The notes under the pieces: generated by a model | Told to the model about the DNA's origin: nothing | Database searches by the model: none | What the model saw: only the letters and a program-made list of their open reading frames with translations | Program-made: the position numbers and the translations under genes | Source: an uncultured virus (IMG/VR IMGVR_UViG_3300023109_000020) | Lineage: Duplodnaviria > Heunggongvirae > Uroviricota > Caudoviricetes | Direction: 5' to 3' (one strand) | Length of the DNA stretch: 20,000 nt | Virus record (IMG/VR): IMGVR_UViG_3300023109_000020 | Part shown: in pieces, positions 7,472-13,182 of the stretch | How positions within the stretch are numbered: the first letter of the stretch is position 1 | How the letters are laid out: each line of letters starts with the position of its first letter

Positions 7472-7936
7472 TTATGCGTCTTCTGTGAAGTCGTCGTCAT
7501 CGGTTCCAACTAGCACGTTGTTGATACCAGCTTCTTCAACTTGTGCTGCGCCATCTACTAGTGATGTTGCAAAGTTCCATGGAACACTCTTGCCATCATA
7601 AGCATTACTGCCTGTTGCACTTGGTGCTGACAAAGTAACTTTACGACCAGCAATTTTACTTACTGTGTATGTTTCTTCGTCGTCCATTTTGAATGAAATA
7701 GCCATTTCACCTGCCGCTAATGCCGCTGGTAGTTTACCAGTTGTTAGCGTACAAGTAAATTGCCCTGGCGTTCCAATTTCTTCACATACAAATTTCTTTG
7801 ATGCTACTTGCTTTATGATATAACCTTCTTTAACTGCTGTGCCGTTATGAAAGTTTACTTTGATTTCGTCTCCAGTTGCAGCACCAGGGCCTACGTTTGG
7901 TACAGCGAATAATCTTTTGTTTAGTGGTCTTCCCAT
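7472..7936 (-). CDS. Hypothetical late protein, possibly abundant head-associated/decoration protein
   Basis: 154 aa, strong AGGAGA RBS, own late box and structured leader, first protein gene after the capsid gene. Function inferred from position only. Confidence 0.78.
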   Translation of the reverse strand: MGRPLNKRLFAVPNVGPGAATGDEIKVNFHNGTAVKEGYIIKQVASKKFVCEEIGTPGQFTCTLTTGKLPAALAAGEMAISFKMDDEETYTVSKIAGRKVTLSAPSATGSNAYDGKSVPWNFATSLVDGAAQVEEAGINNVLVGTDDDDFTEDA

Positions 7937-7954
7937 TTGTTTTCTCCTATAAAA

Positions 7955-8025
7955 AGTAGTCCTATGCCCGTTCTATGGGCTACGCTGTGGGTACAGCATA
8001 AGTCCGCCTTGCGGCACACTATCTG
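7955..8025 (-). promoter_or_regulatory. Candidate structured 5' leader RNA (three hairpins)
   Basis: Minus strand: GCC-GCAA-GGC (GNRA loop), TATGCTGT-ACCC-ACAGCGTA, GCCC-ATAGAAC-GGGC, between the late box and the RBS; GC-rich relative to surroundings. Confidence 0.55.
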
Positions 8026-8032
8026 ACATATG

Positions 8033-8040
8033 TATTTATC
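8033..8040 (-). promoter_or_regulatory. T4-late-like promoter box GATAAATA
   Basis: Immediately after a terminator and upstream of the 7936 operon. Confidence 0.65.
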
Positions 8041-8047
8041 TAAAGAG

Positions 8048-8082
8048 AAAAAAGGCCTACCGCTTCAGTGGGTAGACCTTTT
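8048..8082 (-). terminator. Rho-independent terminator ending the candidate ncRNA
   Basis: AAAAGGTCTACC-CACTGAAGC-GGTAGGCCTTTTTT: GC stem followed by a U tract. Confidence 0.8.
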
Positions 8083-8295
8083 AATAATAAAGTGATAGGT
8101 TGGACTTTGAGAATACCAACAACCTCCTAGTAGCTCTCGCTAAATTCGGAGGAGCCTAGCATCGGATAGTTACTTCCAAAAACATATCTTTGTATCTCTA
8201 CAATCATATGTTGCCACTACAGCTACTAGCCAAGTTGTGTCACTACGCAACACCGTTCCTTGCACTATCTAATCTAAACCGTCGTTTAGCTTATA
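8048..8295 (-). ncRNA. Candidate standalone structured ncRNA (~240 nt), family not recognised
   Basis: Bounded by a sigma70-type promoter and an intrinsic terminator; no minus-strand ORF in the track; several helices, a GAGA tetraloop and a 9-bp long-range complementarity. Confidence 0.6.
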
Positions 8296-8300
8296 TATAC

Positions 8301-8328
8301 ATAATAGCATCTATATACAAGATGTCAA
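8301..8328 (-). promoter_or_regulatory. Sigma70-type promoter TTGACA-N16-TATTAT with extended -10 (TGc) and upstream A tract
   Basis: Minus strand AAAAAAAGTGG TTGACA TCTTGTATATAGATGC TATTAT: perfect -35, 5/6 -10. Confidence 0.75.
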
Positions 8329-8350
8329 CCACTTTTTTTAAAAAAGTCAT

Positions 8351-8378
8351 AAAAAAACAGGGCCCAAAGGCCCTGTTT
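8351..8378 (-). terminator. Rho-independent terminator of the capsid operon
   Basis: AAACAGGGCC-TTTG-GGCCCTGTTTTTTT, about 25 nt after the gp23 stop. Confidence 0.9.
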
Positions 8379-8403
8379 AATACTTTTACTATCTAAGTAA
8401 AAC

Positions 8404-9582
8404 TTAGCTAAAGCTAACGTTACCGTTAGTGATAGCAACTTTACCTAGGTAGTCAGCTGCGTTACCAAGCGATGACGCAGTGTTAGTTAACTCAACATAA
8501 CCATAACGTGTCATAAATGATACTGTTGGTTCGAATGTTGATGGATCTAGTACAACGCCTGAGCTCATTAGTGGGATGTATGGGCAATAGAATGCCGCTG
8601 CATCTGATTCACTTGAACCTTTGTAGCCGATTAGTACTGGTGCTGCATCTGATGCATATGTGTTTACATATACTTTCATAGCATTGTTCAATGTACCAAC
8701 CATTTTAGTGTTAGTTGGTGCTTCGAATGTACCTTCAGTTGTACGAGCGAACGCAGAAGTAGTTGCAGACTGTAGGATTGTAAGCGCGAATGGCGATACA
8801 ACTGCCCAGTTACCTGCGCCACGACGTGTGCGCTGTGCAATCAAGTTACTTACGCGGTTGATTTGTACTGCTAGTGCAGCATGCTCATCACCTACGAAAG
8901 TTGCAGTACCACTTACAGCCGCTTGGTTGTAAGTTTCAGCTGCGTTACCTGCTAGCGAAGTAAGAGATCCTAGAACCTCTTGGTCGATCTCAGCAGTAAT
9001 CTCTTGAGCAAGTGCTGCCATGATTTCTGCTTCTACGTCGATACCATGCTGCGACTGTGCGTCTTGTGCAGCTTCGAATGTCCAGCGTGCGCTGAGCTTA
9101 CGAGTTTTAGCTTCGACTGTTTGCTTTAAGATCTGAATTGACATTCTGTTACCAGCTGCGCCTTCTAGTGAAGCTGTTGAAGCTGCACGATCAGTTGCTG
9201 CGTCTCCAGAATAACCTTCTGCAATCTTAAATGGTGAAAGTGCTTCTTCACCTGCTGTCACATCTGTGCCATTTGTGCTGTCGAAACCGTCAGCATAACG
9301 TACACGTAGAGTGTGAATTTGCCCTACTGGGCCAGTCATTGGTTGTACACCAACTAATTCGTTAGCAATGACTGTTGGCATTACACGACGAATAACTGGT
9401 AGGATAACACGGTTAAGTGTTGCGACATTACCGGCGGATGTTGCACCAGCTGTTGCGGATTCTGAAAGATACTTGCGTGTATTTTCCAATGTTGAAGCCA
9501 TTACAGCTTTCTTGTTGCCTTGTAGGCCTTCAAGAAGTGCAGTTTTTGTATCCTGCCAGCGACTTTCTAATAGTTCTGACAT
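8404..9582 (-). CDS. gp23: Major capsid protein (T4 gp23-like)
   Basis: gp23 motifs LVGVQPMTGPVGQI, KQTVEAKTRKLSARWTFEAAQD, EITAEIDQE, FYCPYIPL, FMTRYG. Confidence 0.97.
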   Translation of the reverse strand: MSELLESRWQDTKTALLEGLQGNKKAVMASTLENTRKYLSESATAGATSAGNVATLNRVILPVIRRVMPTVIANELVGVQPMTGPVGQIHTLRVRYADGFDSTNGTDVTAGEEALSPFKIAEGYSGDAATDRAASTASLEGAAGNRMSIQILKQTVEAKTRKLSARWTFEAAQDAQSQHGIDVEAEIMAALAQEITAEIDQEVLGSLTSLAGNAAETYNQAAVSGTATFVGDEHAALAVQINRVSNLIAQRTRRGAGNWAVVSPFALTILQSATTSAFARTTEGTFEAPTNTKMVGTLNNAMKVYVNTYASDAAPVLIGYKGSSESDAAAFYCPYIPLMSSGVVLDPSTFEPTVSFMTRYGYVELTNTASSLGNAADYLGKVAITNGNVSFS

Positions 9583-12462: not shown

Positions 12463-13182
12463 TTAAGAAATATTGAACATTTTAATAAAATCTTCAATAA
12501 AAATATGTTTTAAGTTGTTAAATTTATTTAGTTCTTGCGGTTGATAATTATCAGGTGCTATAACCCTATAATATTTTATTAACGGATTATTTTTAATAAC
12601 TGTCTGTGTTTGTTTGAGCCAGTTACCATAATATGTTGCAGCATCTGTAGTTTTTTTATAGTTTGGTGTGCTAGCATATACGTTATTAACTCGTTTACCG
12701 TTCTCTAAACCTTTATAATCAAAACCTAAAATAAAGATAGAACTGTTCTGATGTTCGCTTGCTAAATGTAATGCAGTTGGTCCTGAACTCCATCCTTTAC
12801 TAGGCTTAAAATAGTTCAAACCTTCAATGTATTTGTAAGCTTTGTTAGGATTAGTCCATACATTCGGATTGCGTTTTTGATATTCTTTTCGATCAATTTC
12901 TAATATCATTTTAGCATCTACTGCAACTAGATAATCTGGATCAAATTCTCTATACAATGCATTACACCCGTATACTTTTCCAAATTCTTTAAGAGATTCT
13001 AAAGGAATTCTATTACGACTAGTACCATTTCCTAGTACAAATCCATAAGTTTTATTAGTATGTTCGTTAAGAGTTTTTTGTTGAACATTTTTTATTTGTT
13101 CAATAGATTTTTGTCTTCTGCGCTCTGCTAGAAGTGCTTTAGATTGTTGTTTAGTTAACCCAGTCTTATCAACCTTAGGCAT
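12463..13182 (-). CDS. Maf/DUF115 (MptE-like) or sialyltransferase-like Rossmann-fold protein
   Basis: Motifs FVLGNGTSR, VYGCNALYREFDPDYLVAVD, GWSSGPTALHLA, IFILGFD match the GNGxS / GCN / SG..A / LGFD pattern of Maf_flag10/DUF115 and CstII-like enzymes. Confidence 0.65.
   Translation of the reverse strand: MPKVDKTGLTKQQSKALLAERRRQKSIEQIKNVQQKTLNEHTNKTYGFVLGNGTSRNRIPLESLKEFGKVYGCNALYREFDPDYLVAVDAKMILEIDRKEYQKRNPNVWTNPNKAYKYIEGLNYFKPSKGWSSGPTALHLASEHQNSSIFILGFDYKGLENGKRVNNVYASTPNYKKTTDAATYYGNWLKQTQTVIKNNPLIKYYRVIAPDNYQPQELNKFNNLKHIFIEDFIKMFNIS

What the first reader, a model, noticed from the sequence alone, without database searches (positions are those of the whole stretch)
8048..8328. Standalone, probably pseudoknotted ~240-nt RNA gene with host-type promoter right after the capsid gene
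Seen: a complete unit insulated from capsid transcription by the gp23 terminator, with TTGACA-N16-TATTAT (extended -10), ~240 nt lacking a credible ORF, and its own terminator. Minus-strand helices: CTAAAC/GTTTAG (8274-8289); closing GATAG/CTATC (8265-69 with 8094-98); GTTGCGT/ACACAAC (8234-51); AACATAT..TTGTA-GAGA-TACAA..ATATGTT with a GNRA loop (8181-8212); CCTCC/GGAGG (8123-52), whose loop carries AGCTACTA(G), complementary over 9 bp to CTAGTAGCT at 8221-29 (pseudoknot/kissing); and a 3' GTTGG/CCAAC hairpin just before the closing strand, loosely like a T-arm plus acceptor stem. The 5' GATAGT has a second partner, ACTATC (8165-70), suggesting a switch. Inference: an early, sigma70-driven phage ncRNA (tRNA/tmRNA mimic, protein decoy or ribozyme) inside a late cluster. 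I do not recognise it as a known family.
Basis: partly seen in the sequence, partly recalled or inferred. Interest (0 to 1): 0.8.

Follow-up and report, generated by a model that had tools for sequence, protein, structure and literature searches.

The report
Stand-alone manA RNA with kissing loops
Behind its capsid gene this uncultured giant marine phage carries a real, separately transcribed folded RNA of the known but functionally orphan manA family, and related phages keep its loop-to-loop contacts complementary, the kind of contact recently shown to build RNA-only cages.

Summary
The unit is real but not a new family. Window 8289-8089 (-) matches the whole Rfam manA model (45.4 bits, E 4.5e-10; cut-off 55.2). 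One relative passes the cut-off, and a model of this subtype recovers 19 of 20 canonical manA RNAs. Of 76 distinct relatives, 74 keep the sigma70 promoter and 51 an immediate terminator; 1 of 74 has an ORF start within 40 nt. It therefore behaves as a gene, not the 5' leader Rfam lists. Most helices covary. Instead L3:L8 (8246-42:8134-30) and L8:L9 (8138-35:8112-09) stay complementary through many sequence changes; L5:L7 and a GNRA loop are conserved. These appear to match the interfaces of manA decamers and a 60-mer cage in a 2026 cryo-EM preprint. Best reading: an early, mobile, accessory RNA that self-assembles and acts in trans. Expression, oligomer state, target and host are not shown. 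This scan already reported stand-alone manA genes on other genomes; one search of its notes found no mention of the kissing-loop covariation.

The parts
8404..9582 (-). gp23 major capsid gene (392 aa), upstream neighbour
   Evidence: PHROG 138 and Pfam Gp23; about 68-72% identical to jumbo phages Phosso, Vibrio 2.275.O, GAP32, PA5oct
8350..8378 (-). intrinsic terminator of the capsid transcript
   Evidence: 10-pair stem plus T run
8301..8328 (-). sigma70-type promoter, -35 8328-8323, TG 8309-8308, -10 8306-8301; start near 8294 inferred
   Evidence: conserved in 74 of 76 relatives; the only such site on the - strand of the window by my pattern
8089..8289 (-). manA-class structured RNA core
   Evidence: Rfam RF01745 positions 1-192 of 192, 45.4 bits, E 4.5e-10; covariation
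8274..8289 (-). P1 hairpin with GACG loop
   Evidence: 3 of 3 counted pairs change on both sides
8094..8269 (-). closing helix P2 (8269-8265 with 8098-8094) and inner helix CAAG/CTTG (8262-8259 with 8234-8231)
   Evidence: invariant in 76; two-sided changes in divergent and canonical copies
8237..8253 (-). P3 with 7-nt loop L3; 8246-8242 kisses 8134-8130
   Evidence: at least 4 of 5 pairs in 76 of 76 with a one-column shift allowed; 0 of 10000 permutations reach it
8156..8229 (-). P4 (8229-8224 with 8161-8156) closing a junction of P5, P6, P7; L5 (8220-8216) kisses L7 (8170-8166); L6 GAGA tetraloop 8198-8195
   Evidence: P4 92% paired, 3 pairs with two-sided change; L5:L7 95.8% paired, 1 pair with two-sided change; GAGA in 75 of 76
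8123..8152 (-). P8 with large loop carrying two adjacent kissing segments, 8138-8135 (to L9) and 8134-8130 (to L3)
8099..8120 (-). P9; loop segment 8112-8109 kisses 8138-8135
   Evidence: 4 of 4 pairs in 67 of 76 with a one-column shift allowed; 0 of 10000 permutations
8048..8080 (-). intrinsic terminator of the RNA gene
   Evidence: an immediate terminator in 51 of 76 relatives
8033..8039 (-). ATAAATA, T4-late-type promoter motif for the downstream gene
   Evidence: within 60 nt after the terminator in 47 of 50 relatives; 6 of the 7 ATAAATA sites in the window lie just ahead of a gene start or its leader. The T4 late consensus is recalled
7934..8018 (-). freshwater-2 RNA, leader of the downstream 154-aa gene (separate element)
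   Evidence: Rfam RF02980, 70.5 bits, cut-off 49.9
7472..7936 (-). 154-aa gene of unknown family, downstream neighbour
   Evidence: no PHROG or Pfam hit; relatives usually follow the cassette

Best explanation
A divergent subtype of the manA RNA, built as its own small gene. Host RNA polymerase transcribes about 245 nt from the sigma70 promoter to the terminator early in infection (inferred). The RNA folds into a nine-helix multi-junction core (shown by covariation). Three loop-loop contacts (L5:L7, L8:L9, L3:L8) and a GNRA loop then join copies into a closed oligomer built from pentamers, as published manA RNAs do in vitro (contacts shown by conservation; intermolecular use inferred by analogy). 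The particle acts in trans as an optional accessory of host takeover, most likely a multivalent scaffold or decoy for host RNA-binding proteins or nucleases, expressed with the phage's tRNAs and other small RNAs (weakest step, inferred). My odds: manA-class stand-alone RNA 0.9; oligomer through these loops 0.65; decoy or scaffold role 0.35.
For: Full-length Rfam match; 21 of 25 relatives tested match manA at 34.7-58 bits, one over the cut-off; reciprocal recovery of 19 of 20 canonical manA. Promoter 74 of 76, terminator 51 of 76. ORF start within 40 nt in 1 of 74, and the 24 without a terminator have no ORF start within 120 nt; several run into tRNAs or other non-coding stretches. 94.5% of cells paired, 36 of 58 pairs with two-sided change, 0 of 500 shuffles as high, slid controls 33-45%. 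Kissing covariation. The preprint names L5-L7', L8-L9', L3-L8' and an L6 GNRA contact as the intermolecular interfaces. Patchy and mobile: 24 of 65 gp23 relatives carry it at this site; 13 changes on the gp23 tree; RNA and gp23 identity uncorrelated.
Against: The window scores 9.8 bits under the Rfam cut-off. Covariation cannot tell intra- from intermolecular pairing. My loop numbers are mapped to the preprint's from its text, without its figures or supplement. L5:L7 shows little covariation of its own (2419 of 10000 permutations reach it). Nine of 76 lack L8:L9. On fixed alignment columns L3:L8 is only 72% paired and needs a one-column shift in part of the set. My automated test on nine more divergent copies gave ambiguous registers. 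No evidence of a discrete transcript. The cages were made at about 3 mg/mL in vitro. No partner or phenotype is known.
Confidence: 0.6

Rival explanations
1. Same stand-alone RNA, but the kisses are mostly intramolecular: a compact monomer that binds a host protein or metabolite, with cages an in-vitro by-product.
For: All covariation fits intramolecular pairing equally. The preprint reports different oligomers for different variants and makes no in-vivo claim in the parts read.
Against: In the solved manA structures these contacts are intermolecular. Conservation of intermolecular contacts was also reported for ROOL and GOLLD cages (passages).
Confidence: 0.25
2. A cis-regulatory leader or riboswitch controlling the downstream gene, as Rfam and Weinberg 2010 propose for manA.
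For: Canonical cyanophage-type copies often sit just ahead of an ORF: start within 40 nt in 38 of 85, terminator in 10 of 85. A terminator right after an aptamer could in principle be an expression platform.
Against: Here the terminator is a separate hairpin whose sequence varies freely among relatives. The next gene has its own late-promoter motif (47 of 50) and its own leader RNA, which also occurs in loci without the manA cassette. Downstream neighbours vary. I did not search systematically for an antiterminator.
Confidence: 0.06
3. A pRNA-like morphogenetic RNA: a pentameric ring that docks on a five-fold vertex of the prohead or is packaged in the virion.
For: Lies behind a gp23 gene in 41 of 50 relatives with long flanks. 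manA builds pentamers; phi29 pRNA forms rings through loop-loop pairing (passages).
Against: Absent at this site in 41 of 65 relatives, from five 133-210 kb partial genomes and, as a credible match, from four cultured relatives (best 12 bits). No co-evolution with gp23 (Spearman 0.02, Mantel p 0.38). The promoter is host-type, not late. The site also takes small ORFs, tRNAs and a glutamine riboswitch.
Confidence: 0.04
4. A tRNA/tmRNA mimic or a self-cleaving ribozyme.
For: Some copies lie in or before tRNA genes; complex fold with invariant junction bases.
Against: ARAGORN finds nothing; no tRNA, tmRNA or ribozyme family at E up to 10; no CCA end in 76 of 76; no conserved tag frame.
Confidence: 0.05

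Closest known systems
manA RNA motif, Rfam RF01745 (Weinberg et al. 2010, PMC2864571)
   Same: Whole model aligns: GACG-capped P1, closing helix, L5 GUrGU, L7 UAAC, P9 GGUA..CC. Marine T4-like phage setting, tRNA neighbours. Canonical copies show the same L3/L8 and L8/L9 complementarity (read) and mostly their own sigma70-type promoter (62 of 85). One row of the original alignment has a similar long GAGA-capped arm (seen by eye).
   Different: Scores 35-58 bits against 152-196 for canonical copies. Usually terminated at once (51 of 76 against 10 of 85), almost never ahead of an ORF (1 of 74 against 38 of 85). Longer bulged P6. The two L8 kissing segments are contiguous, and the L3:L8 letters vary widely, whereas canonical copies keep GGCA/UGCC. 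Found in non-cyanophage jumbo-like phages (no psbA in 5 of 5 partial genomes); none of 33 pattern hits in cellular genomes is a full copy.
manA cages: A0F1 60-mer, pho34_A767 and other decamers (Ren et al., bioRxiv 10.64898/2026.07.01.735769)
   Same: All four interface types named there have a counterpart here: L5-L7, L8-L9, L3-L8 and a GNRA L6.
   Different: Those are other sequences under 200 nt studied in vitro. The text assigns L8-L9' to the 60-mer and L3-L8' plus GNRA to a decamer; this subtype conserves both sets. Its oligomer state is untested.
ROOL and GOLLD phage RNA nanocages (bioRxiv 10.1101/2024.12.08.627333)
   Same: Phage-encoded, often near tRNAs, kissing-loop assemblies, function unknown (passages).
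   Different: Unrelated folds, three to four times longer; no Rfam match here.
phi29 prohead RNA (PMC5066667)
   Same: Phage RNA that forms rings through intermolecular loop-loop pairs (passages).
   Different: pRNA is essential for packaging; this RNA is patchy, mobile and uncoupled from the capsid gene; no Rfam match to it.

Membership tests
manA RNA (RF01745) | Score at or above the Rfam gathering cut-off of 55.2 bits | tested here: not met
   45.4 bits, E 4.5e-10; absent at gathering level. One member of the same subtype, L104, scores 58
manA RNA (RF01745) | Full consensus architecture P1-P9 with closing helix | tested here: met
   model positions 1-192 of 192; covariation on an alignment not fitted to the structure
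manA RNA (RF01745) | Homology to canonical members (reciprocal search) | tested here: met
   model R1 finds 19 of 20 Rfam-confirmed canonical copies over its full length, 22-38 bits, rough E 1e-10 to 2e-5
manA RNA (RF01745) | L5:L7 pseudoknot or kiss | tested here: met
   at least 4 of 5 pairs in 76 of 76; one A-U to G-C exchange in 7; weak as covariation
manA RNA (RF01745) | Position in a potential 5' UTR (Rfam type cis-reg) | tested here: not met
   terminator 51 of 76; ORF start within 40 nt in 1 of 74
manA RNA cages | L8-L9, L3-L8 complementarity and GNRA L6 | tested here: met
   67 of 76, 76 of 76 (4 or more of 5 pairs) and 75 of 76; loop numbering mapped from the preprint's text
manA RNA cages | Pentamer, decamer or 60-mer assembly | not testable with these tools
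   needs SEC or cryo-EM
tRNA / tmRNA mimic | Cloverleaf or TLD recognised by ARAGORN or Rfam; CCA end | tested here: not met
known self-cleaving ribozymes | Match to a ribozyme covariance model | tested here: not met
   none among 16 matches at E up to 10; cleavage itself not testable
phi29-type pRNA | Present in all members and tied to the head genes | tested here: not met
   24 of 65 at this site; 13 changes on the gp23 tree; Mantel p 0.38

The most novel reading that the evidence does not exclude
Jumbo marine phages carry a mobile gene for an RNA-only cage that forms in the infected cell. Its kissing loops work as lineage-specific address codes, at least ten different complementary L3:L8 and six L8:L9 letter sets, so each phage's RNA assembles mainly with itself. 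A local hairpin in L8 that competes with the L3 contact (weak covariation) may gate assembly. The particle sequesters or shields host or phage molecules early in infection.
Probability: 0.3. Interest if true: 0.8.

Novelty: new variant of a known kind. Interest (0 to 1): 0.47.

Why it matters
manA has been listed as a riboswitch candidate since 2010 with no ligand, and a 2026 preprint shows manA RNAs forming protein-like cages in vitro without showing that this matters in cells. This subtype bears on both: it is laid out as a free-standing gene, and natural selection keeps the apparent cage contacts complementary while their letters change. It supplies natural orthogonal loop pairs and ready swap-and-rescue tests. 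The family itself is known, the function is still open, no cultured phage with this subtype was found, and the scan has met such copies several times.

Tried and rejected
RNA expression: the look-up of sequencing runs listed 24 runs, 20 holding 0.23-0.39 of the words of 7900-8500. Four were laid, all contigs: one 265-nt contig spans 8087-8338 and so includes the promoter, one bridges into gp23, one runs on into other sequence on both sides, and one 251-nt contig from a run only guessed to be RNA stops at 8285. No discrete transcript, strand or level can be read; inconclusive. Two of the four were virus-fraction libraries, which says nothing about packaging. Cultured representative: blastn of 7930-8400 against 50,697 phage records gave 16 short chance matches; model R1 on four cultured jumbo relatives gave nothing credible. 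Cellular copies: 0 of 33 pattern hits extend beyond the pattern. Small-ORF explanation rejected. Automated kiss test on divergent copies ambiguous: L3:L8 5 bp in L031 and L072, L8:L9 4 bp in L057 and L075, competing registers in the rest. My upstream-terminator detector fired in only 29 of 72, so insulation from upstream is shown for the window, not for the whole set. Host not identified; no psbA in five partial genomes. Literature: searches for 'manA RNA', manA with RF01745, cyanophage transcriptome with manA (0 papers), freshwater-2 (0 papers), decoy terms and kissing-loop terms showed no paper describing a stand-alone jumbo-phage subtype or this covariation; subscription papers are not covered. 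The preprint's supplement and Weinberg's Additional files 1 and 3 could not be read and may already note promoters, terminators or these contacts.

Full report
Setting. The window is the head-gene cluster of an uncultured T4-like phage, read on the minus strand: portal, protease, scaffold-like genes and gp23 at 9582-8404. Its gp23 is about 68-72% identical to those of jumbo phages Phosso, Vibrio 2.275.O, GAP32 and PA5oct. The own assembly is not held. Runs that hold part of the stretch are mostly marine by their labels.

Identity. An E-value scan of 7500-9000 against Rfam gave two strong matches among 16: manA (RF01745) at 8289-8089 over the whole model, 45.4 bits against a cut-off of 55.2, E 4.5e-10, and freshwater-2 at 8018-7934, 70.5 bits. 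A scan at gathering level shows only the second, which is why routine annotation misses the RNA. Of 25 relatives scanned, 21 match manA at 34.7-58 bits and one passes the cut-off. A covariance model built from the subtype finds 19 of 20 Rfam-confirmed canonical manA copies. The window fails the formal cut-off, but the full-length and reciprocal matches make it a divergent branch of the manA class.

Relatives. Eighty gp23 loci were fetched; 65 have 250 nt or more downstream, and 24 of these carry the RNA: 15 close copies and 9 more divergent ones. After dropping truncated and duplicate copies, 76 distinct full-length sequences remained. The pattern fixed two short motifs, so their invariance in this set is by construction.

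Gene layout. The sigma70-type promoter is present at the same distance in 74 of 76; the two exceptions follow a tRNA gene. An intrinsic terminator follows at once in 51 of 76. Of 74 with enough flank, one has an ORF start within 40 nt; the 24 without a terminator have none within 120 nt, and several run into tRNAs or other non-coding stretches; 47 of 50 terminators are followed by an ATAAATA motif ahead of the next gene. By the same tests, 85 distinct canonical-pattern copies out of 121 loci have a promoter in 62, a terminator in 10 and an ORF start within 40 nt in 38; 20 loci of that scan were checked against Rfam. The subtype is thus a free-standing gene, while the 5'-UTR label fits canonical copies better, though these too mostly have their own promoter.

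Structure. On the MAFFT alignment, RNAalifold gives 46 pairs, 29 with two-sided changes. My 58-pair structure has 94.5% of cells paired and 36 pairs with two-sided changes; none of 500 shuffles reaches this and slid controls give 33-45%. These shuffles ignore relatedness; the effective number of sequences is about 22. Its 5' half is P4 plus P5. The proposed switch partner ACTATC is L7 plus P7, with no two-sided change against GATAGT.

Kissing loops. Mutual information pointed to contacts that the printed Rfam structure line lacks. L3 (8246-8242) pairs with 8134-8130: at least 4 of 5 pairs in 76 of 76 and 5 of 5 in 57 when a one-column shift is allowed; over 21 distinct types the mean is 4.57 against 3.56 permuted, 0 of 10000. 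On fixed columns it is 72% paired, all 5 pairs with two-sided changes. The adjacent 8138-8135 pairs with L9 (8112-8109): 4 of 4 in 67 of 76, 0 of 10000 permutations; nine copies lack it. L5:L7 is 95.8% paired but nearly invariant, so its covariation is weak. L6 is GAGA in 75 of 76. A local hairpin in L8 competes with the L3 contact and covaries weakly (3.39 against 2.91; 3 or more points in 60 of 76). Canonical copies show GGCA/UGCC and CUGU/ACAG or AUGU/ACAU at the same places (read by eye). In nine divergent copies the automated registers were ambiguous.

Literature. Ren et al. (bioRxiv 10.64898/2026.07.01.735769; parts 1-4 of 5 of the main text read, figures and supplement not seen) report manA decamers, octamers and a T=1 60-mer built from pentamers through L5-L7', L8-L9', L3-L8' and an L6 GNRA contact. 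Weinberg et al. 2010 (passages and parts of supplements 2, 3, 5, 6) class manA as a cis-regulatory riboswitch candidate. Passages only: S-CREM1, Rfam 14, CaCoFold, ROOL/GOLLD, pRNA review. Two papers had no mention of manA.

Mobility. Of 50 copies with long flanks, 41 lie behind a gp23 gene and 9 elsewhere, one inside a tRNA array. On a gp23 tree of 57 rows (24 of 80 loci dropped for short flanks) presence changes 13 times, at least 6 forced by well-supported branches, against 19 for shuffled labels. Among 41 loci, RNA and gp23 identity are uncorrelated (Spearman 0.02, Mantel p 0.38). The cassette is an accessory that moves between phages, and the site behind gp23 is an insertion hot spot rather than a sign of capsid function.

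Mechanism. Shown: a conserved, structured, non-coding manA-class unit with its own promoter and terminator, and three conserved loop-loop contacts. Inferred: early transcription by host polymerase, intermolecular use of the contacts, a closed oligomer, and action in trans as scaffold or decoy. The main rival is a compact monomer with intramolecular kisses. Expression data were inconclusive.

Verdict. Real feature, known class, new variant in layout and in loop codes. Earlier reports of this scan reached the stand-alone manA reading on other genomes; I had reached it before looking and tested it here. A word search of those notes for the kissing-loop covariation returned nothing. Interest 0.47.

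Noticed in passing
window 8018-7934 (-): freshwater-2 RNA above the Rfam cut-off, leader of a conserved 154-aa gene of no known family, behind its own ATAAATA late-type motif; present in many gp23 relatives with or without the manA cassette.
   Followed up: partly
L088, L125, L167; L100, L151, L159, L164; L042, L115, L133; L109, L197; L106, L137; L104, L162, L178, L195 (just 3' of the RNA): Six recurring kinds of apparently non-coding, partly hairpin-rich sequence replace the terminator. Those scanned gave no Rfam match there. Candidates for further uncatalogued phage RNAs co-transcribed with manA.
   Followed up: no
L021 4234-4281, L055 4236-4282: Glutamine (glnA-type) riboswitch aptamers between gp23 and the manA-like RNA.
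   Followed up: no
L040, L094, L146; L161, L192: RNA followed directly by tRNA-Gly, or lying inside a tRNA array without its own promoter, which implies release by tRNA processing.
   Followed up: partly
L004, L005, L013, L031, L035, L052, L057, L072, L075: More divergent manA-like copies at the same site with exchanged closing-helix pairs; all eight printed have promoter and terminator motifs.
   Followed up: partly
L043, L115, L129, L160, L161, L171, L192, L195, L197: A sub-branch that keeps L3:L8 but has lost L8:L9 complementarity; a natural test for which oligomer forms.
   Followed up: no
window 4902, 8039, 13446, 17429, 19658 (-) and 17405 (+): ATAAATA motifs just ahead of structural-gene starts, consistent with T4-type late promoters.
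   Followed up: no
window 12463-13182 (-): 239-aa gene between portal and head genes with a weak match to a sialyltransferase-labelled PHROG (E 3e-4) and a stronger match to an unnamed family.
   Followed up: no
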